Counted from the first letter of the stretch, positions 1 to 47,566 are shown. The stretch: DNA of 47,566 bases from a virus (IMGVR_UViG_3300002098_000055:1-47566), one strand, 5' to 3'. A program made the numbers and translations. The notes: a model not told the origin generated them from the letters alone.

Positions 1-101
1 GTTTCCACACCAGAAGCATTGGCTGTTCTAAGGCTTGCAAAACCTGGGACAATGCCAGCAGATACCGTGCCATCAACACCGAAAAGTAACCGGCCAGCAA
101 C
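1..101. repeat. Left copy of 101-bp terminal overlap (identical to 47466..47566); circular-assembly junction
   Basis: Base-by-base comparison shows 1-101 equals 47466-47566. The overlap lies in the middle of an open reading frame. Confidence 0.95.
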
Positions 102-1607
102 ATGGAAAGCCGCGCCATCATCACCGTACGCTATGTGAGATGATAAAAAGTCGCCATTCTGTACCGCAACAAAAGTCCCTTGCGTTCCGCTTCTGCTTTT
201 AAATCCAGCAAACTGGCCCTGAGTTCCTTGCCCGTTATTATATGATATGGTTTGCACAACGCCTGAAAAGCCAACCTGGGAGACCCACAAGCCGCGTGAG
301 CCGGAAACCGGATTAATAGCTGTATTTATTAATGTTGCGCCCGAGCCGTTAGGAATAATATTAATATTCCCATTGGTATCAGTACTCGAAAGCGTATTTA
401 CGTTAAGGTTTAGGTTTCCAACTGTTGTGTTAGAAAGCGTAGGTGATGTAGCCAGAACCACGTTGCCCGACCCAGTGCTTGCGTTGCCTAAAACCGTCAT
501 AGTCCCGCTAGCATCGGGAAACGTATACGTAAACGTTGCTGATGTGTTGCCGAATTCAAAAATCGACCTACGCTGCGATGCTGTACCACTTAACAAAATC
601 AAGGGGCTTGTGTTTGTCGTTGTTAACGCAAATTGACCCGTTCCTTTTGCTATAAGCTGCATTGAAATGTTCGCATCCGACCCAAGAGTTTGCAAGACAG
701 CCGGAGCACCAGTCACACCATTAGATGCATTAAAGAAATTGACGGCACTTGCGCCACCATTAGCAAATTGCATGACTGCTGCGGAAGTAGCATCATTAAT
801 CTGCGCAATAACTGGGGTGGTCAACGTCATGTTAGTAGCGGCAACCCCACTAGGCAAGGTACTGCTAATAGACGGCACGCCGCTTGCAGAAGTAATTAAT
901 ACGCCATCATTGCCGGTAGTTAGCCCACTAATTGTGTTTCCACTGGTAGCGTAATACCCTAACTGATTGGCCGTACCGGTATTAACAATACCTGATGTAG
1001 CATCGCCAGACTGTACAAACGTAACAGGGTCGGTGCCCACAGTAGTTACCACCACGGATTCTGTAAATAATCGCCCAGCATTAGCGTTACCGTTTATAAT
1101 AAATGTGGTTGCACCATAAAACTCAGCAGCTACATTCATATCTGTAGCACGAGTAAGAATAGCTGCAACACCACCAGTTCCAAGTGTGCTAATTACATAT
1201 ATACCGTTCTGCTCTGTAGATGACTGGTCTTTTACTAACACCCTGTCATTCAATGCAAGCGTCACACCATCAGGCGCATAAACGCCTGTAGATGTGGCTG
1301 TAAGTGTTGCACCAACACCTGAGGCCCCGTTGTTATATGTAGCTACAAATTGCGCAACTGTAGCAGCGGTACACGGGTCTTTAAATACTCGTCCTTGAGC
1401 TACGCTATCCACATAGTTTTTAGTTGCAGCGTCTTGTGCAGATGATGGATCGGTAACGTTGTTTATTAAATGTGTATTCATATCTAGCGCGGCTTGCTGT
1501 ACGCCAAGTGTTGTTGGGTTGACTAATGATGCGCCCGTTTGACCAACAAATAAACCGCTACCGCTTGCGCCGGATAAATCGTTTCCCACACTGTTTGTCG
1601 TTGCCAT
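1..1607 (-). CDS. Tail fibre protein, N-terminal ~535 codons of a junction-spanning gene (continues 47465 down to 46601; ~823 aa total)
   Basis: ATG at 1607-1605 follows an AAGGA RBS. My manual codon scan of 1-840 found no in-frame stop on the minus strand, and my read-through translation of the rest was open. The frame (codon tops = 2 mod 3) matches the open frame entering at 47566. The N-terminus MATTNSVGNDLSGASGSGLFVG matches the neighbouring fibre paralogs. A fibre-type motif LDMNTHLINNVTDPSSAQDAATKNYVD is present. It is missing from the ORF track only because it runs off the window edge. Confidence 0.85.
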   Translation of the reverse strand, partial: MATTNSVGNDLSGASGSGLFVGQTGASLVNPTTLGVQQAALDMNTHLINNVTDPSSAQDAATKNYVDSVAQGRVFKDPCTAATVAQFVATYNNGASGVGATLTATSTGVYAPDGVTLALNDRVLVKDQSSTEQNGIYVISTLGTGGVAAILTRATDMNVAAEFYGATTFIINGNANAGRLFTESVVVTTVGTDPVTFVQSGDATSGIVNTGTANQLGYYATSGNTISGLTTGNDGVLITSASGVPSISSTLPSGVAATNMTLTTPVIAQINDATSAAVMQFANGGASAVNFFNASNGVTGAPAVLQTLGSDANISMQLIAKGTGQFALTTTNTSPLILLSGTASQRRSIFEFGNTSATFTYTFPDASGTMTVLGNASTGSGNVVLATSPTLSNTTVGNLNLNVNTLSSTDTNGNINIIPNGSGATLINTAINPVSGSRGLWVSQVGFSGVVQTISYNNGQGTQGQFAGFKSRSGTQGTFVAVQNGDFLSSHIAYGDDGAAFHVAGRLLFGVDGTVSAGIVPGFASLRTANASGVE

Positions 1608-1616
1608 GATTTATCC

Positions 1617-2654
1617 TTAAAGTTCAATTAAATAATATGTCACGCTCAATGTATACGTACAGGTTCCGCCGCCCGTAACGCCGGTTGTAATGCTATTTAT
1701 ATAAATTGGCTGGCCGGATGAATTCGTGACAGAAACATTACTAAATGTATTAATACGACCAAGGGTTAAAAAAGTTCCTCGGTTAACCGAGCTTGATGTT
1801 GTAATTAGAAAATTTAAATCAGCTATTTTTGTCACATTACTGCCGTAAGACAGATAACATGACCTATCCACGTTAAAACTGGCTGTACCAAACGTAAACA
1901 CTCCAAAAGCATACAAAGGCACAATGACAAATCCGGCGACACCGGGAATCATTAGTACTGGGGTTGTATTTAAATTTAACAAATCGGATGTTGTTAATGT
2001 TGTGGTGGTTGTATAAAGAAGGCCGCCAAGTGTCTGCCATGTCCCATCACCGCGCCAAAATTTATTAACGCTTGCGTTTGTGCCGCTATTAAAATGACTT
2101 ACCCCTAGGTTCCCTGTAACCCCTGTTGTTAAAGGCAAGCCATCACAATTTGTGAGCGTTCCCGAGCTGGGCACACCTAACGCCGGTGTAACAAATGTCG
2201 GGGATGTATTTTTTACTATATCGCCAGAGCCGGTTGTGGTATTGCCACGAACGGTCATGGTGCCTGTAACATCAGGAATTGTCAGTATTTGTGGGGTGCT
2301 GGTGCTATTGTCTACATTAATCGTTGTATTTTTTGATGAGCCAGTTCGTAAAATGTATTGATTAGTACTTGCGATTGTTCCGAGTGTTATTTCTCCCACG
2401 CCATACGCATCTATGCTGATTGGGGCATTGTTTGGTGTAAGATCTGTTGCTTGCATAATAACAGGCGTGCCACTCCCAGACCCGCCACTTATACTTAAAT
2501 AACTTACGCCCCCCGTAAATTGCACAGAAGGATTTCCGCCTGTATTAATTTGACTAATGTTTGGCGTAATAATGGTAGGAGACGTGCTTCCGCAAAAATT
2601 CCCGGACCCTTCTTGGCCAGATAATGTGTTGCCTACTTTATTAATGTTTGCCAT
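1617..2654 (-). CDS. Tail fibre / receptor-binding protein paralog (345 aa)
   Basis: N-terminus MANINKVGNTLSGQEGSGNFCG is shared with three neighbours. The central block TIPDVTGTMTVRGN...GLPLTTGVTGN is shared with 2658..3695. The C-terminal third is divergent. Confidence 0.8.
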   Translation of the reverse strand: MANINKVGNTLSGQEGSGNFCGSTSPTIITPNISQINTGGNPSVQFTGGVSYLSISGGSGSGTPVIMQATDLTPNNAPISIDAYGVGEITLGTIASTNQYILRTGSSKNTTINVDNSTSTPQILTIPDVTGTMTVRGNTTTGSGDIVKNTSPTFVTPALGVPSSGTLTNCDGLPLTTGVTGNLGVSHFNSGTNASVNKFWRGDGTWQTLGGLLYTTTTTLTTSDLLNLNTTPVLMIPGVAGFVIVPLYAFGVFTFGTASFNVDRSCYLSYGSNVTKIADLNFLITTSSSVNRGTFLTLGRINTFSNVSVTNSSGQPIYINSITTGVTGGGTCTYTLSVTYYLIEL

Positions 2655-2657
2655 TCG

Positions 2658-3695
2658 TTATGCTGCCACTAAGTAATACGTTAAATAAAACGTGAATGTG
2701 GACGTGCCGCCACCTGTAGGGTTTGTTGTGGATTGCAAGTAAACGCCAAAGTTTAACGATAAAGATGTAGCTAAATTTCCGGTGGTATTAACACGGGTGG
2801 TTTCATATACTCTTGTTTGACTTGTCGTTTGACCTACAGGTAATCCCAATGTTGATGAAGACAACAATTGACCGCCGCTACCATAGTACAATGACGCAGT
2901 TAAATCCGAGCTAAAACTGCTAGTTACACGCTTAAAATACCCGACACCAGACGTAGGTGAAATGATATACCCCGTAACCGCTGGAACTATTAAAATAGGA
3001 GTCGAGCTTAAATTCTGCACTTCTGATGTTGTTAATGTCACGGTGACTGAAAGCAAGTCTCCAGTTGACGGCGTACTCCATGATGCATCGCCGCGCCAAT
3101 ACGTGGTGGCTGATGCACTTGTTCCGCTATTTAAATTAGTAACAGGCAAGTTACCTGTAACCCCTGTTGTTAAAGGCAAGCCCGTGCAGTTTGTCAGCGT
3201 CCCGCTTGTTGGCGTACCAAGGGCCGGAGTAATTAAAGTCGGGGATGTTTTTAAAACAATATCACCTGTTCCAGTAACCGTGTTGCCTAATACAGTGGCT
3301 TCTCCGGTAACATCTGGTATGGTTAATGTCCTTGCAGTAGATGTGGCGTTATCTACGTTAATGGTTGTAGTTTTTGCGCCGCCAGTAGCTAGTATAAACT
3401 GATTGGTGGTCGCTTGCGTAGACAATCTTATTGCGCCTGCATCGCCTGCATTAATATAGATAGGAACGTCGTTGCCAACTGGGTCAAATCCCTGAATAAG
3501 ATAATACGCGCCACTACCCCCACCAGCTACAAATTTTAAATAAGAAGTGCCGCCAGTAAATTGGGCCGCAGGATTTCCGCTGGTGTTGATTTGAGCAATA
3601 TTTGGCGTTGTTATAGTGGGAGAGGTTGCGCCGACAAAGTTACCTGAGCCAGTAGATCCAACAAGACTATTTCCCACCATGTTTTTTGCGACCAT
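2658..3695 (-). CDS. Tail fibre / receptor-binding protein paralog (345 aa)
   Basis: Same length and architecture as 1617..2654, with N-terminus MVAKNMVGNSLVGSTGSGNFVG. The C-terminus is divergent. Confidence 0.8.
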   Translation of the reverse strand: MVAKNMVGNSLVGSTGSGNFVGATSPTITTPNIAQINTSGNPAAQFTGGTSYLKFVAGGGSGAYYLIQGFDPVGNDVPIYINAGDAGAIRLSTQATTNQFILATGGAKTTTINVDNATSTARTLTIPDVTGEATVLGNTVTGTGDIVLKTSPTLITPALGTPTSGTLTNCTGLPLTTGVTGNLPVTNLNSGTSASATTYWRGDASWSTPSTGDLLSVTVTLTTSEVQNLSSTPILIVPAVTGYIISPTSGVGYFKRVTSSFSSDLTASLYYGSGGQLLSSSTLGLPVGQTTSQTRVYETTRVNTTGNLATSLSLNFGVYLQSTTNPTGGGTSTFTFYLTYYLVAA

Positions 3696-3704
3696 TGTTC
3701 ATTC

Positions 3705-5348
3705 CTAAATAAATGTTAATGCCGTTGATGACGTATCAAGTAATGTCCATGAAGTATTTGCCACCGTTGCAAGCAATATAATATTATCTGAATAAGCAGT
3801 GCTTGCAACGCTTGTTGTATAGGATGCACCATACGCTGAAACATTTGTCCCGCCAGGGATGCTAATTGTCCATGAGTTTCCTGAAACGCCGCCCGCTACG
3901 CCTATTTGTGTTCCTGCTGCAAACGTAGTTGGAAGTGTTACAGTTACGGCTCCAACATGAGACAAAATGTAGCCATTTGCCACTGCGGCGGTAAATGATG
4001 TGCCGCTGTTAGTGTTCCATGTGATTGGCAAGCTAGATGTCAATGCAATGGTGCCTGTGGCATCCGGCAAACTCCATGTTCTATCCGCGCTTAAGTTTGA
4101 GTTACTTAATGTGCCAATGTTATTTGCCGCGCTATCAACGGCAACGATTTGTAATGCCCCTAAATTAGCTGTTGGCGAATAAGCCACATATGTTCCGGCT
4201 ATTCCTCCTATAGCGCCATCTCCTGAAAAGAAATAACCAGCAGGAGAATAAAAGTTACCAGCCGTCGCATAATAAGACCCTTGATCCATTATTAATGAAT
4301 AAGTTCCAAGTATCGTTTGGTTTCCGGCAGGATTTGTTAAAATCGCTTGGGTATCTACAAGCAAATTACCCGTAGCATCTGGAAGTGTCCAAGTTCGGTC
4401 TGCTGAGATACTTGCATTTGTAATGAGTCCATCAAACGCTAAAGACGAATCACTTGCCTGCATTGACAGGGTGCCTTTTGCAGCCGTTGGAGAATACGAT
4501 GTAAATGACGAACCCGCGCTTCCTGCACCGGAGCCAGCAATGAATCCCCCAGTTGTTGCCCTAAACTGACCTGTTGCAAGGCTTAAATCGTAAGCCGTAA
4601 TAGTTTGAGAGGCACTTGGGGACAAAAGAACAGCGGTGCTACCTATAGTACTGCTCAATAAGACCGTGCCAGTAGCATCAGGAAGCGTCCAGGTTCTATC
4701 ATTGGTAAGGCTCGCATTAGTTATATCACCCTCGAAATTACCAGCCATTGCCGTTGTATACATGACAAGGCTGCCCAAGTTTCCTGCTTGGGAATACGCA
4801 ATCACAAATGGCAACGCCGTTGTCCCCGTAGAAAGACCGGCCTGAATAACTGGGGCTATAAAACTACCCGATGTTGCGCTCATAATTAAATTGTGCGCTG
4901 TTATAGTTTGGTCAGCAGTGGGCGTTAACAACACCGCAGGAGCGGTTGTTGCAGATGATGTGGCCCAGGAAGCCGCAGTAGTACCTGTCAACGATATGCA
5001 CGTAAATGTGGCATCGAATCCAGCCAGCACGGTGTAGACATTATTAAGACCAGATGATTCAATCGGGATATCAAGATTTGATTGGTTAATCACCCTGTAT
5101 GATTGACCAATACTTAATGTCGATACCACGGGCAGCACAACACTATGCGATACGCCCGTTCCCGTAAATATTTGAACCTGGGTGCTGGCTACCGTTAATG
5201 TAGTTGCACCAGAGCCAGTTACTACTGTAGTGGCTGAACCTGGGATATAAGAATTAACTGTCGTATTTGCATTGGCGTCTCTTCCGACAAAAGACGCCGC
5301 CCCCGAAGTTCCGGTTAAACTATTACCAAGTGCATTTATGATGGTCAT
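3705..5348 (-). CDS. Tail fibre protein with three tandem ~95-aa repeats (547 aa)
   Basis: N-terminus is MTIINALGNSLTGTSGAASFVG. Three repeats each end in DRTW(T/S)LPDATG. Confidence 0.8.
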   Translation of the reverse strand: MTIINALGNSLTGTSGAASFVGRDANANTTVNSYIPGSATTVVTGSGATTLTVASTQVQIFTGTGVSHSVVLPVVSTLSIGQSYRVINQSNLDIPIESSGLNNVYTVLAGFDATFTCISLTGTTAASWATSSATTAPAVLLTPTADQTITAHNLIMSATSGSFIAPVIQAGLSTGTTALPFVIAYSQAGNLGSLVMYTTAMAGNFEGDITNASLTNDRTWTLPDATGTVLLSSTIGSTAVLLSPSASQTITAYDLSLATGQFRATTGGFIAGSGAGSAGSSFTSYSPTAAKGTLSMQASDSSLAFDGLITNASISADRTWTLPDATGNLLVDTQAILTNPAGNQTILGTYSLIMDQGSYYATAGNFYSPAGYFFSGDGAIGGIAGTYVAYSPTANLGALQIVAVDSAANNIGTLSNSNLSADRTWSLPDATGTIALTSSLPITWNTNSGTSFTAAVANGYILSHVGAVTVTLPTTFAAGTQIGVAGGVSGNSWTISIPGGTNVSAYGASYTTSVASTAYSDNIILLATVANTSWTLLDTSSTALTFI

Positions 5349-5357
5349 ATTAGTTTC

Positions 5358-6914
5358 CTATGCTGTAGTTAGAGTGACGTTAACGGTACTTGATACAACC
5401 CAGCTTGTATTTGCTACATCGCACTCGAGGTAAACTGTCGAACCCGCGCTTGCAGAGCTTGTTAGTGTACCGCCCGCAGATGTTGTGCTGTTTAAATAAC
5501 GAATCGTATCGCCAGTTGACGCTAGAATAACCCATCCACCAGTGTTAGCTGTTGAACCAATCACTGCAATTACATCGCTAACGGCATAAGTTGCTGGCAA
5601 TGAGACAAGGGTTTGACCCGCTGCAAGAGCATAATATTTTGTGTTAACTGCGGCGGTTTGTGTCGTACCCGCAATTGAAGCAATAGCAAGGCCGCCTGAG
5701 GGAGGAGTGCTTGATACCCAGTTAGTACCATTTGATGTTAAAACGTTTCCGCTAGTTCCCGCTGTTGAGGGGTATGTTGCTGTCGTATAAGCCGGAGGAC
5801 TGCTGGCACCCGCCGATTGAAATAATTGTCCAGCACTACCCGGCCCAACACCTGATAAGGTGGTTCCAGATGCCGCGTAATAAGCTAACTGGTTAGCTGT
5901 GCCGCTGTTAATTATGCCTGAAGCGGTTGAAGTTAATGCAATCGTGCCAGTCGCATCGGGTAACGTCCACGTTCTAGCTGCCGCCGTAGATGCGTTGGTC
6001 AATACGTTAGCAAAATTTCCAGCATTGTTCCCAGCCGTAACTGCAAGGCTTCCTAAATTTGCCGTGGTAGAAAACGCTTTGAAGCTACCTGAAAATCCAC
6101 CTGCTGCAGAGCCTGAGTTATAGCTTCCGACGGTTGCAAACATTGAGCCTGTTTGTAAAGTTAGGCTGCCAGTTGTTATGGTTTGGTTACCGCTTGGGGT
6201 TAAAAGTAAAGACATTGGGTTTTGTAATACCCAACTACTAAGATTAGTAGACCACAAGAACCAATAGCTACCATTGGCGAGTATCGTATTAGCGGGAAGC
6301 GCACTACCGTTTTGAAGAACGATGGGGTCCGTGGTGCCATTTACTGTTAACGTTGAAGCTCCGGTGTTTGTATGCCCACCGCCCGCTCGCATATAAACCG
6401 GAAAACCTTCCCCGTACGAACTTTGCGGAGCCGGTACTAGCGTGATAGAAAACGCATTAGACGTACCTACATCAATTGCTGAGTTATAGAAGTTTTCTTG
6501 CACTAAAAACGTATTAGCGTTGGAAACTGACGGGTTTATTAATTGAAACGTATTCCCGGTTAGATCGTATATTAATAGATACGCAGTGTTGGGGGATATG
6601 TCGTTAGGCGCAAGGGATAACCCGCCCCACAGTGTTATCAGTACGGGGCTAAGGGCATTAACTTGTAGTGTCGGGCTAGATGTTAAGTTTTGTAACGTTC
6701 CTGAACTCATAGACACAATTAAATTATTAGAAAGGCTTGCGACCGCCGGGTTTAGAACGACAACAAACGCGTCATCTACCCCTGTAGCGGGCGCGTAGTT
6801 GAACGCTGAGCGCTGTACTTGTAGCTCGGTAACTGTCCCTCCACCGCCGCCTGTTGCCGGAGGATAGACACCCCATGTAATCGCTTCGACCAACCAACTA
6901 TTAGAGCCGCTCAT
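5358..6914 (-). CDS. Tail fibre protein (518 aa from the ATGA-coupled start; ORF track start 6926)
   Basis: It has one copy of the ...ARTWTLPDATGTIALTS repeat unit. The composition is Gly/Ser/Thr/Asn-rich, as in fibres. ATG at 6914 overlaps the TGA of the upstream ORF. Confidence 0.75.
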   Translation of the reverse strand: MSGSNSWLVEAITWGVYPPATGGGGGTVTELQVQRSAFNYAPATGVDDAFVVVLNPAVASLSNNLIVSMSSGTLQNLTSSPTLQVNALSPVLITLWGGLSLAPNDISPNTAYLLIYDLTGNTFQLINPSVSNANTFLVQENFYNSAIDVGTSNAFSITLVPAPQSSYGEGFPVYMRAGGGHTNTGASTLTVNGTTDPIVLQNGSALPANTILANGSYWFLWSTNLSSWVLQNPMSLLLTPSGNQTITTGSLTLQTGSMFATVGSYNSGSAAGGFSGSFKAFSTTANLGSLAVTAGNNAGNFANVLTNASTAAARTWTLPDATGTIALTSTASGIINSGTANQLAYYAASGTTLSGVGPGSAGQLFQSAGASSPPAYTTATYPSTAGTSGNVLTSNGTNWVSSTPPSGGLAIASIAGTTQTAAVNTKYYALAAGQTLVSLPATYAVSDVIAVIGSTANTGGWVILASTGDTIRYLNSTTSAGGTLTSSASAGSTVYLECDVANTSWVVSSTVNVTLTTA

Positions 6915-7096
6915 TGTGCCACCCACACAGACGAGGCTGTAATATTTGTACCGTTATTAGTAAATGTCTTAACGTATGTTACGCCTTGATAGACACAGGT
7001 TATTGTTGCGACTAGCGTACCGTCATATGTGAATGTTAAGGCGAGGTCGTCAATCGGTAATTGCCCTCGGGTGCTGGTGGCTACAGTTCCGCTCAT
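6911..7096 (-). CDS. Hypothetical small protein (61 aa) at the head of the fibre array
   Basis: The ORF is coupled by ATGA overlaps to both neighbours. I recognise no motif. Confidence 0.5.
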   Translation of the reverse strand: MSGTVATSTRGQLPIDDLALTFTYDGTLVATITCVYQGVTYVKTFTNNGTNITASSVWVAQ

Positions 7097-7500
7097 TTTT
7101 TGCTCCCTTTCATAATTTGTTGGTATATCTTAGCCGCTTCAATGGGGTCGCTTACATTAATACTGATAGCGGGTTCGGTGACGTTGCAGTCAAGCTCAGG
7201 ATTGTATTTTTCAGACCATCCCGCACGGGTTTTTAAGTAAAACATAATTGCTTGGATATTGCCCGACATTGCTAGCTCATAGAGCTTTTTTGATACCCTA
7301 GCTATTGATTGGGCTTGGCCTTGGTGGAACGCTTTTCTTAGTTCAGGTTCGCGTTTTTCGGCTTTTAACCAGACCTCTTGGCTATGGCCGAAATAGTTCT
7401 GGATTAAGTATTTAGTCAGCCCAAGGCCCGCCAGCATTTTGACTTCTTTGATTTGGTCGTCGTCGACTATAAACGTGGGGGTGTTGCCATTCCTAGCCAT
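7093..7500 (-). CDS. HTH DNA-binding protein, terminase small subunit-like
   Basis: The C-terminal motif GNIQAIMFYLKTRAGWSEK resembles the ...IFWLKNR..W.DK signature common in small terminases. The N-terminus is HTH-like. Assignment is by eye only. Confidence 0.45.
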   Translation of the reverse strand: MARNGNTPTFIVDDDQIKEVKMLAGLGLTKYLIQNYFGHSQEVWLKAEKREPELRKAFHQGQAQSIARVSKKLYELAMSGNIQAIMFYLKTRAGWSEKYNPELDCNVTEPAISINVSDPIEAAKIYQQIMKGSKK

Positions 7501-7527
7501 AGTTTATCCTAGATTTTTTGTAAATTA

Positions 7528-7556
7528 AGTATATCCCTGCGTGTGTAGTCACACAA
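7528..7556 (-). promoter_or_regulatory. Candidate sigma70-type promoter for the TerS-like/fibre operon
   Basis: Minus strand reads TTGTGT-17 nt-TATACT, followed by an AGGA RBS and the ATG at 7500. Confidence 0.35.
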
Positions 7557-8835: not shown

Positions 8836-8862
8836 AGTAAAATCTCCTAGAAAAGTTCATAT

Positions 8863-8868
8863 ATTATA
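8863..8868 (-). promoter_or_regulatory. Candidate -10 box (TATAAT) upstream of the methyltransferase gene
   Basis: A perfect TATAAT sits on the minus strand ~28 nt upstream of the GTG start. The -35 is weak. Confidence 0.3.
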
Positions 8869-8910
8869 CTTATGAGCGGGACTTGTACAGTTTTAGTGTA
8901 TGGTGCAACT

Positions 8911-9164
8911 GGTTACATTCTCGGTTACACGGGCTATAACCCAATCCCAGTATAGGTTTGAGCCATTTTCGATGTAACTCAAGGGTCAATTCCTATATAG
9001 AGAGTCGTTTTAGGCTAGAGCGCTCTAGCTCTACGGTTGTAAGAGCACTATAATACCTAATCTTAGTAATTCAGTTACACTAGTTACACTAGCTACATAA
9101 AGCCATACAGTGCTTGGCCTATATGAGTGTAACTGAAAACAATATAAGTTACATTACGTTACAC
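8911..9164. repeat. Iteron cluster: at least 8 copies of GTTACA(C/T) in both orientations (candidate replication origin / protein-binding array)
   Basis: Forward copies: 8911-8918, 8923-8930, 9073-9080, 9082-9089, 9091-9098 (degenerate), 9148-9154 and 9158-9164. Inverted copies: 8973-8978 and 9127-9135. All lie in a ~340-bp non-coding gap. Confidence 0.7.
9014..9029. repeat. Perfect 16-bp palindrome GCTAGAGCGCTCTAGC in the centre of the iteron region
   Basis: Checked pairwise over 9014-9029. Confidence 0.9.
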
Positions 9165-24997: not shown

Positions 24998-26086
24998 TCA
25001 ATATTTAATATACGCCCACAAATTAACCGAGGGCTGAATGACATTAAACGCTGTTTGTGTCCCGAATCCCGAAATCCCACCCGATGCACGAGTTTGTAAA
25101 GAGTACCCCGCCGCTCCGTTAATGACTCCCGTTGTTGGACTGGAGTATACTAACTGATTTGAAACATCGTGAGTGTGATTGTATAACTCGGACGCCGCCA
25201 TCAGGTGCGTTTCTTCGCCGCCCGATTGACCGAGATAGCCGCCCAGTGTGGTAGTGCCAGTTGTTCCGTTTGCGCCAACGGGGACATTGCGACTAAGGTT
25301 TGGTAAATTAAAAAGCGTTGAGCCGTTACCGTTACCCCAAACATAAAACACCATGGAACCCGTACCGCCCGCCGTTGCCGCCGCGCTCATCTGTACAGTT
25401 GTGCTTGTTAAAATTGTAGTGATATACGTCCCGGCGGGTATTCCTGCGCCTTCGATTTTTGCGTTAGGCCCAGCGGATAAATTAGCCGTACTAGTGACCG
25501 TGAGCGTTGTCGAACTGTTGGTAGTCGACGCTGTTTGTGTGACTGTTAGTGCATCATATAAAGCCGCATATGTTGTACGAGATATCGCTGTTCCGTCGCA
25601 TTTTAGCGAGCCGGTTAATCCGTTAGGGCCAGCAAACCACTGTACCGTTCCAACTTGCACCATACTCTGGCTTACAGGTATCCAATTACCATCCGCGCCG
25701 GGTACTGATGTGTTAGACGCTACTTGGCTTTCCCAGAGCAAATACACACCTGAATATGCACCGGATGCGGGGGAATAAAAAACCCGAGCGTAAAGGGGAT
25801 AGCTAGCTGGGCCACCCACAGGTGGAGAACCTGTTGCGGGCGCTACCCAAGGGGACGCGCCGTACGTTTGCAGGTTTTGCAAAGCGGTTGTTATGTCAAG
25901 CATCAATTGATTAAATTGTCCACGGGGTATGGGTAGCGCAGGAGCACCGCCGGATAAATCCAGCTCATAGTTTGACGTAAAACCATACGGGTAATTAACC
26001 GTACCCGTTGAGCTGCCCGTGTTGCTAATCGGTGTGACGGTTCCCGATTCAGCAAACGGGTATAAAAAATAAGGGTTCGCTGCCAT
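24998..26086 (-). CDS. Tail fibre protein with tail-collar domain interrupted by an inserted module
   Basis: Collar motifs are WFAGPNGLTGSLKCDGTAISRTTYAALYDAL and STLFNLPNLSRNVPVG ... GGEETHLMAASELYNHTH. Confidence 0.8.
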   Translation of the reverse strand: MAANPYFLYPFAESGTVTPISNTGSSTGTVNYPYGFTSNYELDLSGGAPALPIPRGQFNQLMLDITTALQNLQTYGASPWVAPATGSPPVGGPASYPLYARVFYSPASGAYSGVYLLWESQVASNTSVPGADGNWIPVSQSMVQVGTVQWFAGPNGLTGSLKCDGTAISRTTYAALYDALTVTQTASTTNSSTTLTVTSTANLSAGPNAKIEGAGIPAGTYITTILTSTTVQMSAAATAGGTGSMVFYVWGNGNGSTLFNLPNLSRNVPVGANGTTGTTTLGGYLGQSGGEETHLMAASELYNHTHDVSNQLVYSSPTTGVINGAAGYSLQTRASGGISGFGTQTAFNVIQPSVNLWAYIKY

Positions 26087-42934: not shown

Positions 42935-44461
42935 TTAGGCCCCACTGAGCGGGCTATCGGCAAACGGATCTTCCTCGTCCGGTGCCTCATCTTCTAAATT
43001 TATATACCCGCTGTTTGGGTCGTTTCTTAATCTGTCGCGTTCGTCTTGGCCATCAATCGCGCCTGAGTTAACTAACACCATACCTGCTTCAGCTTTCATC
43101 TTATTAAGCTCTGCCTGTTCCTTCGTGGTCATTGCGTCTAATTCGTTCCAATTGATAATCGTCTCGAACGGTGCAATTCCAAACTCTGGCGCAATCTCTG
43201 AACGTATCATTAACATATGATGCCGTTCAATCAGCGGGGTTAGGTCGTGTGACTGTATAGACTCAAGTTCCTCGTGATAGTTCGCCTCTTCAAATTCTCC
43301 CGTACTATTAAACCCTTTTGGGGGTGTGCCTAATAGCTTAGTCGCTGGGACATTCGACGCGGCGGCCACAAGCTGATATTGCGTCATAATCACAGTATCT
43401 AAATCCGTGAGGCTTGTGTCGAACTGCTGCATTTCGTCTTCTAAGTCGATTGTCTTAACGCCCCAATTGTCCCGGCGTTGTGTAAATTCGGTAAACCGTT
43501 GTACAACCTTCCACGGGTTCATAGCGGCTTTTGCTAAATCCATTTTCACAACATCTAGGCGTTTAGACATTGCTAGCATTGGAGCCTCATCCGCTGTTTT
43601 TTCCGCTGCATAAACCCGCTGCGCTATCTTCTGAGGTATCGGAATACCGCCAAAAATATACGTGGGCTTTAACAAGTCGCTAACTTCTTCGGTGCGAAAA
43701 ACCACAAGGTGTGTTCTGTGGACTTTCTTGCCGTTGATAATCCACCAAGTCGGCTCATAGAAATTAATGCTCGCGGGGTTGCCCGCTGCTTCGTTGTCTA
43801 ATTGGGGCGTAATCCAGTACGGGTCTATTTGCGAGATGCCACGATAACTTCCTTCTGTTACAGCGTCCGGGTTAAAGGGGTTTTCGTAATATTCGTCCTG
43901 TAGTATGTCGTTTTCCATGCGCACGTTAAACATAGCGACACGGATACCGAATACCCTACCCATTTGCACCAATTCAATTAGGTTTTTATTAAGATTGTAT
44001 TTAGCATCGCCTTTTTTAATCGCGTCCACGACCTTGGGGTCGACGTCTACATCTTCACTTACCGATATCTCAAAGCCGTTGCGCGTTGCATCTTTAGCTG
44101 GCATTAAACAAGCTTTAGATATCAGCCAGTTTTGAGCAAGCATGGCGCACAGTTGATATCCTATAAACGTTTGTTGTGAGTACCAGAGCACTTGAGTTGT
44201 TGGTAATATCGAATTGCCGCCCCACTGTGCTTTTATATTGAGCTGGTTATCCATGGCGAACGTAGGTTTCTCTGCGCTATCGGTTGCTATAGACGAATGT
44301 ACAGAATTCTTAAAATTCGCTTCCCAGAACCGTTCGAGCTGTTCGTGTTCGGACGTGTCGTCCATTGCGTAAGGTTCAAACGTGCGTGGGCGCTCGGGTT
44401 TCTCTGCCGCCACGGGGATGCTTTCAGGCTTTTTAAAATAACTTACAATCCGTTTAATCAT
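42935..44461 (-). CDS. Portal protein (508 aa from the ATGA-coupled start; ORF-track start 44512)
   Basis: It lies between TerL and the Mu-F-like gene. ATG at 44461 overlaps the TerL TGA. Confidence 0.75.
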
Positions 44462-46065
44462 ATAAAAGCACTCCTGCGCGCTGGGGGTGTGGGGGCAAAG
44501 GCTATCATGCAACTGTCGGCCCGGTTGGGGGACAGTGCACCGTCTGCTAGTTTATCGATTATAATTTTACCAGAATCGTTTTGTCGATACGTTGGCTGTG
44601 ATAACTCAGAGATTAACGCGGATAGACCATCGATGCTACTAGACACAGATATTAATTCATCTGGGTTACATTCGATGCCTTGCGTTACCCAACGGTACGT
44701 TTTCTGAAACCGTGTTCTTAATGCCCACCACGCTTGCGCTTTAAAGTTACCAAAAAAATCTTCGTTAGTCGGGCCGCGCTCACGGTTGCGCCCGTCTTCG
44801 CTGGTGCTAAACGGGTAGTTTTCTTTGTCTAAGACCTCGCCGGAACCACGGAACGGATTGAATACGATCTCGTGTTCGCGCTCTCTATTAATCGCTTTAG
44901 CGTCCCCGCGCACGCCCGCGCCCATGCCGTCGGCGTCATAATAAACCTCATCGTAGCCCAGCACATCGCACAGCGTTACGGCTTTCTGAACCGTTTCGTA
45001 AATATCGGAACCTTTGCCGCTCCATATCTCTAAGTACTCAAGTAAAATACCGTAGCGCCCGCAATACGCGTTTTTATCTTTACCTTCGTCCGCTATATCA
45101 AGCCCGGCTTTTCGTATGCCAGTAACGGCTATTCCTAGTTTAATATGTGCATCAATTGCGGCTTGTACCCACGCTGACGGAATCACAATACCCTCAACTG
45201 ACGCGCTATAGTCGAGGTCAACTTCCTGCGCTATGACTACCGGATTATCAATATCTTTACACGTTTTATCATACCACGCTTGGTCTTTGCGGGGGTCTTC
45301 GCGCCAGTGGAACGAAAACACGCTAATAGAACCGCCGAATCGTTTACGGGCAAACGGGTTATTCATTCCGTGGGGCGTTGATACATCTATTCTGCAATTT
45401 GTGGTTTGAGACAGTGAGGCGTCGATTAAATCGGGGCGGGGCATGAACGCGCTCTCGTCCACGAAATATACAGATGTTCTCGCCCCACGCCCGATGCCGT
45501 CTCCGGATTCCCCCGCGATAACGCTCCCCGTGTGTGGGAATTCTATACGCATGTAGGGCGAGTGTTTTCGCTCATCATAGCCGGGTCTGAATTCTTCGGG
45601 TAGGTGCGCTATAAATTGCCGCGCTTTATAAAGTAATGATTTTGGGTCGCCTTTTTTATCAACGTATTCCTCTTTCCTCGAGCCGAATCCGGCTACAAAA
45701 CCCTCGTTAAATAGGCACATAGTACAAGCCACCGATACGGTGAGCCAGCTCATGCCCATTTCGCGTGATTTGTCGGTTATCCCCGGTTCTTTGTTTTTCC
45801 AGCGTTCGAGGAACCACGACACCCATTCTTCTTGTTTAGGAAATAGTAGGAACGGCATAAGCGTTGGTAGCCCGACTTCAACATTTCGGGGGTCAAACGT
45901 CACTCCCCAATCTATAATAAACTGTGCGGGATTTTCTTTGTAATACGATTTTAAACCGGCAAGAGATTTAGGCTTTTTGCGCAGACGTGCAAGATTATCA
46001 AGGCGGTAATTAAAAACGGCGTTGTAATCGGGATTCTTAAAATCAAACGGAAACGGTAACGGCAT
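44458..46065 (-). CDS. terL: Terminase large subunit
   Basis: ATPase motifs are [10 protein letters not shown] and VYFVDESAF. The nuclease motif is [13 protein letters not shown]. Confidence 0.85.
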
Positions 46066-46294
46066 TGGTTACCTTCTGATCTAAAACTGCTACAACACGA
46101 TTAAGACGTTCAATCTCTTTTTGAAGCGGTAGCTTGCAATGCTTATCTATAATTCCGCGAAGCTCGCATACCGCATCATCTTTATTTAAGTGTACTTTGC
46201 TATCATCTGTGTGCGCTTCTAAAACAGATACCACCGTATTTTCATCGGTATCAATCTCAGTCACAGAACAGTGATACACAAAGTACTGGCTCAT
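46043..46294 (-). CDS. Hypothetical protein (83 aa)
   Basis: ORF upstream of TerL. Confidence 0.55.
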
Positions 46295-46527
46295 TATTCG
46301 TGCTCTACAGGTGCGGGGGCTACCGCATCGACGACTTGCTCTGCTACTTCTAAAGCTTGAGCTACTTCAGATTCCGGGGCTACGGCTTCAGCAACTGAAC
46401 TACTGAGGTGCAACAAGTTTTTAAGCTCATTTAACGCGCCAAGCAAGCCGTTATGGTTTGCCAAACTGTTTGCTACTGCTGCTTCGTATTCTTTAATTCG
46501 CGCTTCTATTGATGCGACTATAGACAT
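46294..46527 (-). CDS. Hypothetical coiled-coil/acidic protein (77 aa)
   Basis: First ORF after the candidate promoter. A GGGGA RBS precedes it. Confidence 0.55.
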   Translation of the reverse strand: MSIVASIEARIKEYEAAVANSLANHNGLLGALNELKNLLHLSSSVAEAVAPESEVAQALEVAEQVVDAVAPAPVEHE

Positions 46528-46600: not shown

Positions 46601-47566
46601 TTAACGTATTCTGCGGGCGTAGATAGTTCCAAATCCACCTAGGGTTGAGATAGTAAACTCAGCTCTTGCAATCAAATAAACGGTAGTTGTCCCTGACAAA
46701 CTGTACCTTAATCTAGGGACTGTAAACATTGTATTTTGCACATTCGTCACAATTCCAGTGGTTGCATACGCAAGTTCCGAGTTATCCGCTGTGTTTGTTT
46801 GCAAAGTAGCTGAAGTGGAATTATTACAACCTTGTAAAATTGTAATATTAGTGGTTGCTGCTGGTATAAACCCAACCGACCCCCACACCTCCCAATCTCC
46901 GGCTGTAAGTGAGATAGAGGTAATGTTTGCCAAAGTTCCGTTTGTCAGTGAAACTGGGGTGTTATTGTTTACAACACTACTCACAAACTCCCCAACACTA
47001 CCCGCAGCCGCGTTATTGTTTGTCGTTGTGCCGATGATGCCTGATGTGGATGAGAAGGCTATGCTTGGTACGCTGTTGATTGCGGTGCCTGTAATAAGCA
47101 CGGTCCCGCTAGCCGCAGGCAAACTGTAAATCCAAGGACCTGCGCTATTTGGAAAGCTAAACACAGCAGTATTTGCATAAGCCGCACCAGATGCCATGTA
47201 CAATTGGTTGCTAGTTCCAGTGGTTTGGAAAATAACCGGGGAATTACCTTTTGATATGCCTGAGAATGAAATGTTTGTATCGGACCCAGCAGGGATAATA
47301 AACGGATTGTTGCCCGCTGATTGATTGATGATTCTCATGTAATTTACAGCGGAAGCTGTAGACGAAAAGCTTAGCGATGGATTGCCGTTTGCGTCGTTAA
47401 TGCCTGTCGTAACAATAGGATTAGCAAACGTAGCAACCTGAGAACTATTAATTGTCAAAGCTATAGTTTCCACACCAGAAGCATTGGCTGTTCTAAGGCT
47501 TGCAAAACCTGGGACAATGCCAGCAGATACCGTGCCATCAACACCGAAAAGTAACCGGCCAGCAAC
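46601..47566 (-). CDS. C-terminal part of the junction-spanning tail fibre gene (see 1..1607)
   Basis: The minus-strand frame is open from 47566 to the stop at 46601. The ORF-track start at 47473 is an internal GTG. It contains a variant fibre motif, YSLPAASGTVLITG. Confidence 0.85.
   Translation of the reverse strand, partial: VAGRLLFGVDGTVSAGIVPGFASLRTANASGVETIALTINSSQVATFANPIVTTGINDANGNPSLSFSSTASAVNYMRIINQSAGNNPFIIPAGSDTNISFSGISKGNSPVIFQTTGTSNQLYMASGAAYANTAVFSFPNSAGPWIYSLPAASGTVLITGTAINSVPSIAFSSTSGIIGTTTNNNAAAGSVGEFVSSVVNNNTPVSLTNGTLANITSISLTAGDWEVWGSVGFIPAATTNITILQGCNNSTSATLQTNTADNSELAYATTGIVTNVQNTMFTVPRLRYSLSGTTTVYLIARAEFTISTLGGFGTIYARRIR
47466..47566. repeat. Right copy of 101-bp terminal overlap (identical to 1..101)
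   Basis: Same comparison as for 1-101. Confidence 0.95.

What the first reader, a model, noticed from the sequence alone, without database searches (positions are those of the whole stretch)
1..7096. Six consecutive modular tail-fibre genes (~9 kb, about 19% of the genome) between a TerS-like gene and TerL
On the minus strand the order is: TerS-like gene (7500-7093), a 61-aa ORF, then fibre genes of 518, 547, 345, 345 and ~823 aa. The last one crosses the assembly junction to 46601. A promoter-like gap, two small ORFs and TerL follow. Four of the fibres share an N-terminal anchor-like motif (N)x(V/L)GNxL(S/T)GxxGSGxFVG. Their C-terminal parts diverge, which is the pattern expected for alternative receptor-binding proteins docking on a common adaptor. 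A seventh fibre, the collar type, sits in the baseplate module. This many RBP-type genes in a 47-kb genome suggests a branched multi-fibre apparatus or a broad, switchable host range. Their placement between the small-terminase-like and large terminase genes is also unusual.
Basis: partly seen in the sequence, partly recalled or inferred. Interest (0 to 1): 0.7.

Follow-up and report, generated by a model that had tools for sequence, protein, structure and literature searches.

The report
Multi-fibre host-recognition gene cassette in phage
A 47-kb uncultivated contractile-tailed phage carries five tail-fibre-type genes in a row plus a tiny conserved partner gene, wedged between its two DNA-packaging genes; this is a large example of a portable, uncharacterised "fibre kit" shared by many environmental phages and probably gives the virus several receptor-binding tips.

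Summary
The ORFs are real and at the stated coordinates, but there are five large fibre-type genes (518, 547, 345, 345, 823 aa) plus a 61-aa non-fibre ORF, not six fibres. The span is 8.0 kb, or 16.8% of the 47,465-bp genome once a 101-bp assembly overlap is removed.

F5 residues 14-255 match the cryo-EM-resolved tail fibre of Legionella phage LME-1 (E 3e-30). A profile of the F1 proximal domains matches bead III of the Pseudomonas phage Pa193 tail fibre (E 1e-9). F2-F4 share modules with F1 and F5.

The four-fold N-terminal motif is real, occurs only at N-termini, and is better conserved than the rest of the proteins. Its second half overlaps a common shaft repeat.

TerS-orf61-primary fibre is a conserved block in more than 30 uncultivated contigs, followed by a variable number (about 0-5) of further ORFs, fibre-like in many. 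Relatives without the block have TerS next to TerL, so the array is an insertion. In other relatives the same block follows the baseplate, or lies among other fibre-type genes ahead of lysis genes.

No reverse transcriptase, inverted repeats or template/variable repeat pairs were found, so "switchable" is unsupported. Docking on a common adaptor remains an inference.

Verdict: a new variant of a known kind (multi-RBP phage), of moderate interest.

The parts
7093..7500 (-). TerS-like gene (135 aa), first gene of the conserved TerS-orf61-primary-fibre block
   Evidence: It matches phrog_309 terminase small subunit at 5e-11. tblastn matches genes annotated as terminase small subunit in four cultured phages. 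Homologues abut TerL in relatives lacking the array. There is no Pfam, NCBIfam or PDB match.
6911..7096 (-). orf61, a 61-aa strand-rich protein; proposed adaptor or assembly partner of the primary fibre
   Evidence: ATGA overlaps join it to both TerS and F1. The family has 70 representatives, nearly all 60-70 aa. In every related locus with downstream sequence it is followed by a fibre with the type-A N-terminus. It is absent where TerS abuts TerL. One homologue is fused to a region resembling, by eye, the F3/F4 tip. No cultured-phage, Pfam or PHROG match.
5358..6914 (-). F1, primary fibre (518 aa). Layout: N-terminal helix (res 6-13), GGGGG hinge (22-26), two beta domains (35-127, 144-235), shaft, tip A (408-518).
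   Evidence: AlphaFold2 gives pLDDT of about 90 for the three globular parts. A profile of residues 27-240 hits Pa193 tail fibre gp47 bead III at E 1e-9. Foldseek hits include CBA120 TSP4-N, the KP1 baseplate, the Pa193 baseplate/fibre and T4 gp10. The N-terminal half is conserved at 57-59% identity in relatives.
3705..5348 (-). F2, secondary fibre (547 aa): cap-B N-terminus, three 'RTW(T/S)LPDATG' repeats, tip A
   Evidence: It is 27.5% identical to F1 over 556 aligned positions. The cap motif starts at residue 5 and the repeats lie at 219, 319 and 424. Residues 10-144 match a fibre in L087 that carries a different N-terminal module. No Pfam, PHROG, PDB or cultured-phage hit.
2658..3695 (-). 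F3, secondary fibre (345 aa): cap-B, widespread 'TSPTLxTPxLGTPxSGTLTNCTGLP...WRGD' shaft module, jelly-roll tip B (210-345)
   Evidence: 4,496 homologues were found, and the shaft module is 70-80% identical in many. AlphaFold2 folds the C-terminus as a beta sandwich with pLDDT 76-90. Foldseek finds jelly-roll matches.
1617..2654 (-). F4, paralogue of F3 (345 aa, 53% identity)
1..1607 (-). F5, N-terminal two thirds of the 823-aa fibre (cap-B, LME-1-like shaft, F3-like module)
   Evidence: The ORF is joined across the junction. Residues 14-255 match LME-1 tail fibre orf22 residues 199-434 (PDB 9EFK) at E 3e-30. tblastn hits annotated tail fibres of many phages.
46601..47465 (-). F5, C-terminal third including tip C
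   Evidence: phrog_11393 tail fiber protein matches residues 622-823 at 3e-16. The same tip occurs as stand-alone 167-aa proteins in L177 and at the end of P0040.
47466..47566 (.). 101-bp duplicate of bases 1-101 (assembly overlap of a circular or concatemeric genome)
   Evidence: The 75- and 81-kb contigs of the same phage are longer than one genome.
46294..46527 (-). o77, a 77-aa alanine/glutamate-rich (coiled-coil-like by eye) protein that closes the array; possible fibre chaperone
   Evidence: A homologue (40% identity) ends the fibre array in L087 just before the lysis genes. A similar-looking, untested 90-aa ORF sits in the same position in L179. No family match.
46043..46294 (-). o83, a small ORF conserved immediately upstream of TerL
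   Evidence: Homologues occur in L003, L009 and L166.
44458..46065 (-). TerL, the downstream boundary of the insertion
   Evidence: It is 60-62% identical to TerL of Bordetella phage IFTN9, Burkholderia phage Magia and Hafnia phage yong1. It also matches phrog_5989.
24998..26086 (-). Collar-type fibre (362 aa) at the end of the baseplate module, the sixth RBP-type gene
   Evidence: phrog_19618 tail collar protein matches at 4e-19. The homologue in L161 carries Pfam Collar. In lineages L161, L162 and L169 this gene sits directly upstream of the (ParB-MTase)-TerS-orf61-fibre block.

Best explanation
The region is a host-recognition cassette inserted into the packaging operon of a virulent-looking myovirus with a Pa193/E217-type baseplate.

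It is probably transcribed as one unit with TerS, which is an inference. It encodes:
- a 61-aa partner protein (orf61);
- a primary tail fibre (F1);
- four secondary fibres (F2-F5);
- a small protein (o77), alanine/glutamate-rich and coiled-coil-like by eye.

Each fibre is most likely a homotrimer built from an N-terminal attachment element, a Ser/Thr/Gly/Ala/Asn-rich beta-structured shaft of shared repeat modules, and its own C-terminal beta-sandwich tip. There are three tip families. Together with the collar-type baseplate fibre, the virion could therefore display up to six receptor-binding proteins.

F1 is the conserved anchor. Its short amphipathic N-terminal helix and penta-glycine hinge, probably together with orf61, would fix it to the baseplate. 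Its Pa193-gp47-like 'bead' domains would form the proximal stalk.

F2-F5 lack any globular anchor domain. They begin with a conserved 11-22-residue cap (M-A-T-x-N-x-V-G-N-x-L-S-G-x-x-G-S-G-x-F-V-G). I infer that this cap plugs them into F1, orf61 or another baseplate site, giving a branched or multi-site fibre set.

Shown here: gene structure, homology to solved tail fibres, modularity, conservation of the block, variable copy number, and N-terminal exclusivity of the cap. Inferred: trimer state, incorporation into virions, the docking partners, and multi-receptor binding.
For: **Fibre identity**
- F5 residues 14-255 match the LME-1 tail fibre (PDB 9EFK) at E 3e-30. That protein forms six trimeric fibres in the cryo-EM structure (PMC12407071).
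- The F1 proximal-domain profile matches bead III of Pa193 tail fibre gp47 at E 1e-9. gp47 is seen attached to the baseplate wedge (PMC11456595).
- Foldseek on the F1 model hits CBA120 TSP4-N, the KP1 and Pa193 baseplate/fibre chains and T4 gp10, plus named tail fibres in BFVD.
- F5 tip C matches a PHROG tail-fibre family.
- F1-F5 share modules pairwise. All contain only 4-7% charged residues and more than 55% S/T/G/A/N.

**Conserved block**
- orf61 is always followed by a fibre with the type-A N-terminus in about 30 loci. It is absent wherever TerS abuts TerL.
- In other lineages the same pair lies after the baseplate and collar fibre, or among other fibre-type genes (by N-terminal motif) ahead of lysis genes.

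**The cap as a module**
- It was found 14 times at N-termini and never internally in 240 fibre-like proteins.
- It is 45-64% identical among F2-F5, against 26-32% for the rest of the proteins in non-paralogous pairs.
- It is maintained through synonymous DNA changes.
- It precedes at least three different downstream modules.
- In F5 it replaces a 198-aa anchor domain of the LME-1 fibre, which the authors describe as T7-like. In F2 it replaces a 'MADIRWSTF' module seen in L087.

**Horizontal exchange of tips**
- The F1 tip is 81% identical to the tip of a fibre in an unrelated, possibly short-tailed-phage contig.
Against: - No direct evidence shows that any of the five proteins is in the virion or is trimeric.
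- The shafts were modelled with low confidence because the predictions were monomeric.
- The second half of the cap coincides with the ordinary shaft repeat G-[ST]-G-x-x-V-x-x-T-S-P-T-L-x-T-P, which recurs internally in F3, F4 and F5. Part of the shared motif is therefore just shared shaft architecture.
- The TSP4/gp10-like fold in F1 is most consistent with the XD1 type. The literature treats XD1 as a spacer or glycan-binding fold, not as the XD2/XD3 docking domains.
- Cap-B fibres also occur in arrays where tblastn found no orf61 match (L087, L089), so the docking partner cannot be universal.
- Some structural matches are to capsid proteins: cement and decoration jelly rolls, and the Pa223 capsid spike. 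F5 also hits a PHROG labelled head decoration.
Confidence: 0.68

Rival explanations
1. The five products assemble end to end into one long segmented fibre, as T4 gp34-gp35-gp36-gp37 do. They would not be parallel, independent receptor-binding fibres. The N-terminal cap of each would join the C-terminus of the preceding protein.
For: - The genes are consecutive and tightly packed.
- The cap runs straight into a shaft repeat, as if continuing a shaft.
- In relative L177 a 121-aa type-A protein is followed by two 167-aa tip-only proteins, so non-covalent serial assembly does occur in this family.
Against: - Each of F1-F5 ends in a compact beta-sandwich tip of a kind that is C-terminal in many unrelated fibres.
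- Tip A occurs twice (F1, F2) and tip B twice (F3, F4), which makes no sense for a single serial fibre.
- The number of secondary genes ranges from about zero to five in relatives with the same primary fibre.
Confidence: 0.08
2. The array encodes capsid or neck fibres (head decoration, whiskers) rather than tail fibres. This would fit its position beside the packaging and head genes.
For: - The array lies between TerS and TerL, upstream of the portal and head genes.
- F5 residues 36-263 hit phrog_2647, labelled 'head decoration'.
- The best PDB matches for the F3 tip are phage cement and decoration proteins.
- The F1 model weakly matches the Pa223 capsid spike.
- In L168 a paralogue of a head-module protein sits in the same gap.
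Against: - The strongest sequence matches are to tail fibres resolved on tails.
- In sister lineages the block directly follows the baseplate wedge and collar-fibre genes.
- In other contigs it is embedded among other fibre-type genes ahead of lysis genes.
- Jelly-roll folds are generic.
Confidence: 0.1
3. The genes are real fibre genes, but only some products are used at a time or at all. They would be a reservoir of exchangeable cassettes, redundant paralogues, or alternatives that compete for a limited number of docking sites. Individual virions would then differ, and not all would be co-displayed.
For: - Two paralogous pairs exist (F1/F2 tips, F3/F4).
- The copy number is very variable in relatives.
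- Tips are exchanged horizontally.
- A common cap implies a common and therefore limiting docking site.
Against: - All five ORFs are intact, and most have a ribosome-binding site.
- They are identical in four independent assemblies.
- The cap is under purifying selection, shown by synonymous divergence.
- No regulatory switch was found.
Confidence: 0.12

Closest known systems
Branched tailspike complexes of Ackermannviridae (CBA120 TSP1-4) and phage G7C (gp66/gp63.1)
   Same: - Both have several consecutive RBP genes in a myovirus.
- One anchor protein has an N-terminal anchor, a poly-glycine hinge and a beta domain. TSP4 runs AD-GGGG-XD1 (PMC8825819); F1 runs helix-GGGGG-beta domains.
- Foldseek matches the F1 model to TSP4-N (about 110 columns, rmsd 3.0-3.3 Å) and to T4 gp10.
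- The partner RBPs lack their own baseplate anchor.
   Different: - The CBA120 and G7C proteins are tailspikes with enzymatic beta-helices. The proteins here are thin fibres with small beta-sandwich tips.
- No XD2/XD3 docking domains were detected.
- The partners carry an 11-22-residue cap rather than globular head domains.
- An extra 61-aa protein is present.
- The cassette lies in the packaging operon of a 47-kb genome rather than in the tail module of a genome of far larger size (from my own knowledge, not checked here).
Tail fibre gp47 of Pseudomonas phage Pa193 (Pbunavirus; E217-type baseplate)
   Same: - F1's second proximal domain is sequence-homologous to gp47 bead III (E 1e-9).
- The baseplate genes of this phage lineage carry E217/Pam3-type Pfam families.
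- Both have a 'beads on a string' proximal stalk.
   Different: - As far as the paper read here describes, Pa193 has a single fibre type.
- This phage has a collar-type fibre in the position after the baseplate wedge gene, and F1 plus four more fibres elsewhere.
- F1 lacks a recognisable bead I / triple-helix interface.
Tail fibre (orf22, ALK43937.1) of Legionella phage LME-1
   Same: F5 residues 14-255 align with orf22 residues 199-434 over the whole stretch (E 3e-30). In LME-1 this is the shaft that follows the capsid-proximal domain.
   Different: - LME-1 is a T7-like podovirus with one fibre gene.
- Its 198-aa N-terminal domain, which the authors call T7-like and virion-binding, is replaced in F5 by a 13-22-residue cap.
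- The distal parts differ.
T4 long tail fibre genes 34-37 with chaperone gp57A
   Same: - Both have a run of consecutive fibre genes sharing repeat motifs.
- A small protein that looks coiled-coil by eye (o77, 77 aa) is associated with the array, reminiscent of gp57A. This resemblance is recalled from memory and was not tested.
   Different: - The T4 products form one serial fibre with a single distal tip.
- Here each product has its own tip, and tip types recur.
Burkholderia phage BcepB1A, a relative by TerL (about 50% identity)
   Same: TerS is separated from TerL by about 4.6 kb of other genes. The TerS-TerL interval is thus a known plastic site in this broad group.
   Different: In BcepB1A the interval holds about eleven small hypothetical genes. 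It has no fibre genes and no orf61 homologue.

Membership tests
Phage tail fibre / receptor-binding protein | Sequence or structural homology to a protein experimentally located on a phage tail | tested here: met
   F5 matches LME-1 orf22 (PDB 9EFK) at E 3e-30. The F1 profile matches Pa193 gp47 (PDB 9B45) at E 1e-9. F2-F4 qualify only through modules they share with F1 and F5.
Phage tail fibre / receptor-binding protein | Modular N-terminal anchor, fibrous shaft and C-terminal binding tip | tested here: met
   AlphaFold2 models show confident C-terminal beta sandwiches and low-confidence extended shafts. Tips and N-termini are swapped among homologues.
Phage tail fibre / receptor-binding protein | Homotrimer incorporated in the virion and binding a host receptor | not testable with these tools
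   Only monomer prediction was available, and there is no isolate or proteome.
Branched RBP complex (CBA120 TSP4/TSP2, G7C gp66 type) | Anchor RBP carrying T4 gp10-like XD2/XD3 jelly-roll domains that bind the partner RBPs | tested here: inconclusive
   Foldseek links F1 to TSP4-N, CpaA and gp10. CpaA shares only the XD1 fold, so the match is most consistent with XD1. No XD2/XD3 signal was obtained, and the matched residues are not reported by the tool.
Branched RBP complex (CBA120 TSP4/TSP2, G7C gp66 type) | Partner RBPs lack a baseplate anchor and attach through their N-terminus | tested here: inconclusive
   F2-F5 have only a 22-residue conserved cap before the shaft. Attachment itself was not tested.
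T4-type segmented long tail fibre | Consecutive gene products form serial segments, and only the last carries the receptor-binding tip | tested here: not met
   Every product ends in a tip domain, and tip families A and B each occur twice.
Diversity-generating retroelement (Mtd-type) RBP | Reverse transcriptase plus template and variable repeat pair | tested here: not met
   No reverse transcriptase was found among the ORFs scanned. The only direct repeat in 1-9000 is the F3/F4 paralogy at 70% identity. Mtd_N occurs in a distant homologue but not here.
Invertible tail-fibre switch (Mu Gin / P1 Cin type) | Site-specific invertase and inverted repeats flanking alternative fibre C-termini on opposite strands | tested here: not met
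   There are no inverted repeats of 25 nt or more in 1-9000. All fibre genes are on one strand. No recombinase was found among the scanned ORFs.
Terminase small subunit (for the 135-aa gene) | Homology to TerS families and adjacency to TerL | tested here: met
   phrog_309 matches at 5e-11. Annotated TerS genes in four cultured phages match. Homologues abut TerL in L064, L103, L144 and L146. Adjacency is lost in this phage and in the lineage where the gene follows the collar fibre. Pfam, NCBIfam and PDB gave nothing.

The most novel reading that the evidence does not exclude
orf61, the type-A N-terminus (amphipathic helix plus glycine hinge) and the 11-22-residue cap may together form a portable plug-and-socket system. 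It would be shared by phages of different tail types (contractile-tailed here; possibly short-tailed in contigs L087/L089). Such a system would let small genomes mount up to five or six different receptor-binding fibres and trade them horizontally. orf61 would be a new kind of minimal fibre adaptor, and the cap a universal docking peptide.
Probability: 0.3. Interest if true: 0.7.

Novelty: new variant of a known kind. Interest (0 to 1): 0.5.

Why it matters
Receptor-binding proteins set phage host range. Multi-RBP phages are the main natural model for broad or adaptable host range and for engineering it.

This cassette places six RBP-type genes, about 19% of the coding capacity, in a 47-kb genome. 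It belongs to a widespread set of fibre modules with no counterpart among cultured phages for orf61, and at most one weak partial match for F1 and F2. These modules include a 61-aa partner protein, an N-terminal helix-plus-glycine-hinge anchor, and a short N-terminal cap.

If the cap and orf61 turn out to be docking elements, they would be very compact, transferable handles for attaching new fibres to a phage. The comparison also shows that the TerS-TerL interval can host structural genes, which matters for automated phage annotation that relies on module order.

Tried and rejected
- **Family libraries.** Pfam, NCBIfam and PHROGs gave nothing for F1-F4, orf61, o77 or o83.
- **Cultured phages.** tblastn found no match for F2 or orf61, and only one weak match for F1.
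- **PDB by single sequence.** Nothing was found for F1, F2, F3, TerS or the collar fibre. Only the F5 sequence and the F1-domain profile gave hits.
- **DGR or invertible switch.** Rejected: no reverse transcriptase or recombinase among the ORFs scanned, and no template/variable or inverted repeats.
- **Recent gene conversion keeping the caps alike.** Rejected: the DNA differs at synonymous sites.
- **orf61 as a split C-terminal domain of TerS.** Considered because of the ATGA coupling. Rejected for three reasons. The longer orf61 homologues are not TerS fusions. orf61 is absent where TerS abuts TerL. orf61 occurs with no TerS homologue detected in several contigs where other fibre-type genes lie upstream.
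- **Host identification.** Failed. There are no tRNAs. The best genome hit is a 68% TerL match on a short MAG contig, and the rest are prophages at about 60% in many genera. The sample accessions were not found in the literature.
- **Locus retrieval.** A 40-sequence orf61 alignment was too divergent for the tool. A 9-sequence alignment worked.
- **Promoter and terminator scans.** Counts did not exceed shuffled controls.
- **Foldseek limitation.** Its output gives no residue ranges, so I could not tell which F1 domain matches TSP4-N or gp10.

Full report
**1. Observation**

The window has a 101-bp direct repeat at its two ends. Removing one copy gives a 47,465-bp circle. In that circle the minus-strand ORF starting at 1607 runs through the junction to 46601 and encodes 823 aa.

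Four independent assemblies (two JGI, two Logan) carry the same region. Three of them carry this gene contiguously and complete; in the fourth it is cut at the contig end. The gene order is 135, 61, 518, 547, 345, 345, 823, 77, 83 and 535 aa. They differ from the window at one base, position 102. Two of these contigs are 75 and 81 kb, longer than one genome, which fits a concatemeric or circularly permuted genome.

The genes are tightly packed:
- TerS/orf61 and orf61/F1 overlap as ATGA.
- F1 to F5 are separated by 3-9 nt, with AGGA-like ribosome-binding sites at three of the four junctions and a weak one before F4.

There are five large genes, not six. The sixth ORF is a 61-aa protein of another family. 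The span is 7,961 bp (16.8% of the genome). It reaches about 9 kb (19%) only with the separate collar-fibre gene.

The N-terminal motif is real. It starts at residue 5 of F2, F3, F4 and F5 and occurs nowhere else in the six frames.

**2. The genome**

PHROG and Pfam scans show a myovirus. The minus-strand order is portal, MuF-like protein, protease/scaffold, major head protein, neck, sheath (33515-35494), tube, tape measure, hub, baseplate wedge proteins, a 362-aa collar-type fibre (24998-26086) and endolysin.

The replication module has a family A polymerase, a VapE-type primase-helicase, a DEAD helicase and a DUF2800 nuclease. No integrase or reverse transcriptase was found among the ORFs scanned, and there are no tRNAs.

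TerL is 60-62% identical to TerL of Bordetella phage IFTN9, Burkholderia phage Magia and Hafnia phage yong1. It is about 50% identical to that of BcepB1A. Homologues of the baseplate genes in relatives carry E217/Pam3-type Pfam families.

**3. Are they fibres?**

Pfam, NCBIfam and, for F1-F4, PHROGs are silent. Cultured phages hold nothing like F2 or orf61, and only one weak partial match to F1. Three lines of evidence nevertheless tie the set to tail fibres.

(i) F5 matches a solved tail fibre.
- Residues 14-255 match residues 199-434 of orf22 in PDB 9EFK at E 3e-30.
- That protein is the tail fibre of Legionella phage LME-1. It forms six trimers on a T7-like tail (PMC12407071).
- F5 also hits annotated tail fibres of many phages.
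- Its last 200 residues match a PHROG tail-fibre family.

(ii) F1 has the proximal architecture of a baseplate-attached fibre.
- The AlphaFold2 model has an N-terminal helix (6-13), a GGGGG hinge, two confident beta domains (35-127, 144-235), a low-confidence shaft and a confident tip (408-518).
- A profile of residues 27-240, built from 11 relatives, hits tail fibre gp47 of Pseudomonas phage Pa193 at residues 235-333 with E 1e-9.
- That segment is 'bead III' of the proximal stalk seen attached to the baseplate wedge (PMC11456595).
- Foldseek adds CBA120 TSP4-N (about 110 columns, rmsd 3.0-3.3 Å), KP1 and Pa193 baseplate chains, CpaA and T4 gp10.
- The TSP4 paper shows that CpaA shares only the XD1 fold. 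The resemblance is therefore most consistent with XD1, a spacer or glycan-binding fold, and not with the XD2/XD3 docking domains.

(iii) F2-F4 share modules with F1 and F5.
- F1/F2 are 27.5% identical over 556 aligned positions, F3/F4 are 53% identical, and F3 and F4 match F5 residues 255-425 at 31-34%.
- All five proteins are more than 55% Ser/Thr/Gly/Ala/Asn with 4-7% charged residues.
- F3 has 4,496 database homologues. Many of them consist of tandem copies of the shaft unit '...G-S-G-x-x-V-L-x-T-S-P-T-L-V-T-P-x-L-G-T-P-x-S-G-T-L-T-N-C-T-G-L-P...' joined to various N-termini (Mtd_N and others) and various tips.
- The F3 tip folds as a jelly-roll sandwich with pLDDT 76-90. Its best PDB matches are generic viral jelly rolls, including phage cement proteins.

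**4. The N-terminal motif**

Its second half (G-[ST]-G-x-F-V-G-x-T-S-P-T-x-x-T-P) is the start of the ordinary shaft repeat. It recurs internally at residue 142 of F3 and F4 and at residue 379 of F5.

The first half (M-A-T-x-N-x-V-G-N-x-L-[ST]-G) behaves differently:
- It is specific to N-termini. Among 240 fibre-like proteins it occurs 14 times at the N-terminus and never internally.
- Residues 1-22 are 45-64% identical among F2-F5. The remainder is 26-32% identical in non-paralogous pairs.
- The DNA differs at synonymous positions, so the peptide is under selection and has not been recently copied.
- The cap precedes at least three different downstream modules.
- In F5 it stands where LME-1 has its 198-aa anchor domain, which the authors describe as T7-like.
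- In F2 it stands where a homologous fibre in contig L087 has a 'MADIRWSTF...' module.

It therefore behaves as one of several interchangeable N-terminal modules. In fibres generally, these modules are the attachment ends. That the cap docks on a common adaptor is an inference and has not been shown.

**5. Synteny and origin of the placement**

Among IMG/VR contigs retrieved with TerL, eleven carry TerS, then an orf61 homologue, then a fibre with the F1-type N-terminus ('xxFLxWxxVFGV' plus a glycine run), upstream of TerL. In several of these, further fibre-type genes lie between that fibre and TerL.

Retrieval with orf61 itself gave 30 loci. In every one with downstream sequence, orf61 is followed by a fibre of that N-terminal type, with the two genes overlapping. 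Three contexts occur:
- (a) ParB-methylase, TerS, orf61, primary fibre, then between zero and about five further ORFs of 90 aa or more (fibre-like in several loci), small ORFs that look coiled-coil by eye, TerL. This is the arrangement in the window, which has the longest array seen.
- (b) Baseplate wedge, collar fibre, (ParB-methylase), TerS, orf61, primary fibre, and so on. In the one such locus with enough downstream sequence (L179) a 90-aa ORF resembling o77 and an endolysin-like ORF follow, both judged by eye.
- (c) No TerS or TerL homologue detected in the fetched locus. Here orf61 and the primary fibre lie downstream of other fibre-type genes (judged by N-terminal motif) and ahead of lysis genes.

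Relatives and prophages that have a homologous TerS but no orf61 have TerS abutting TerL: L064, L103, L144 and L146. The array is therefore an insertion into the packaging operon, and orf61 travels with the fibre, not with TerS. BcepB1A shows that this interval is plastic in the wider group.

Cap-bearing fibres also occur, two or three in a row, in 36-41-kb contigs that carry a Phage_stabilise (PF11134) gene and may be podoviruses. There they lie just before lysis genes, and tblastn found no match to orf61 in those contigs. One of these fibres has a tip 81% identical to the F1 tip, which indicates recent horizontal exchange.

**6. orf61**

The family has 70 representatives at E ≤ 1e-3 among 1.84 billion representative proteins. 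Nearly all are 60-70 aa and stand alone. The longer members are not TerS fusions. One of them joins the orf61 domain to a C-terminal region that by eye resembles the F3/F4 tip.

Taken with the ATGA coupling to F1 and the strict co-occurrence, the most economical reading is a structural or assembly partner of the F1 N-terminus. This is an inference.

**7. Mechanism and rivals**

The best explanation is a multi-fibre host-recognition cassette. F1, with orf61, would be the anchored primary fibre. F2-F5 would be secondary fibres attached through the cap. The three tip families, plus the collar fibre, would give several receptor specificities.

No switching device exists in the sequence, so display would be constitutive rather than switchable.

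- **Serial T4-like fibre.** Disfavoured, because each product has its own tip and the tip types recur.
- **Head or neck fibres.** Suggested by the gene position, a 'head decoration' PHROG hit and some capsid-protein fold matches. It is outweighed by the tail-fibre homologies and by the tail-module contexts in sister lineages.
- **Partial or competitive use of the five products.** Cannot be excluded.

**8. Novelty**

Phages with several RBPs and branched RBP complexes are known, so the kind is known. Four things are new:
- the particular module set (orf61, the helix-glycine-hinge anchor, and the short cap), which is widespread in uncultivated phages, with at most one weak partial match in cultured ones and, to my knowledge, undescribed;
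- the density of RBP genes in a 47-kb genome;
- the insertion between TerS and TerL;
- the sharing of the same modules between this myovirus lineage and contigs that may be podoviruses.

I rate this a new variant of a known kind, with moderate interest.

Noticed in passing
window 1-101 and 47466-47566; position 102: The two ends share a 101-bp terminal direct repeat, which is an assembly overlap. Position 102 is T in the window but C in two other assemblies of the same phage. It lies inside F5.
   Followed up: partly
window 26756-28651 (-): The gpJ-like baseplate wedge protein (631 aa) contains two copies of a 64-aa segment, at residues 277-340 and 438-501, with 53 of 64 positions identical. 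Homologues in relatives are only 407 and 542 aa. It could be an extra surface or docking domain.
   Followed up: partly
window 46294-46527 (-); L087 14265-14543; L179 14244-14516: A 77-aa protein (o77), alanine/glutamate-rich and coiled-coil-like by eye, closes the fibre array here. It has a homologue (40% identity) at the end of the array in L087, just before the lysis genes. A similar-looking, untested ORF sits in the same place in L179. It may be a fibre chaperone like T4 gp57A, a resemblance recalled from memory only.
   Followed up: partly
window 5358-5700 (-) (F1 residues 406-502) vs L089 10871-11152: The F1 tip is 81% identical to the tip of a cap-bearing fibre in an unrelated 36-kb contig that may be a podovirus. 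This implies recent horizontal transfer of a receptor-binding tip between phage types.
   Followed up: partly
protein P0277 (198 aa; homologue of orf61): An orf61-type domain is fused directly to a C-terminal region that by eye resembles the F3/F4 jelly-roll tip. This suggests orf61 can act as the N-terminal module of a minimal fibre. Several other homologues carry C-terminal 'LMITEDGxxLMI' repeats.
   Followed up: no
L177 1500-3063 and L178 7459-9022: In these relatives the type-A protein is only 121 aa. It is followed by two 167-aa proteins ('MVDVTIDGQ...') that consist of the F5-type tip alone. This is a fibre split into an anchor and alternative tips.
   Followed up: no
L168 12589-13923 (same contig as L027 8386-9720) vs window 39959-40684: In one relative the TerS-TerL gap also holds a 444-aa paralogue of the 241-aa head-module protein (45% identity over 132 aa).
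   Followed up: partly
window 7549-8835 (-): A fused ParB_N plus N6/N4 DNA methyltransferase gene lies directly upstream of TerS. It is conserved in that position in many relatives, including prophage-like loci L144 and L146.
   Followed up: partly
L161 and L162 (contigs Ga0105053_10001203 and k141_237060): In these relatives TerS lies directly after the baseplate and collar-fibre genes and far from any TerL in the fetched stretch. That is an unusual position for a small terminase gene.
   Followed up: partly
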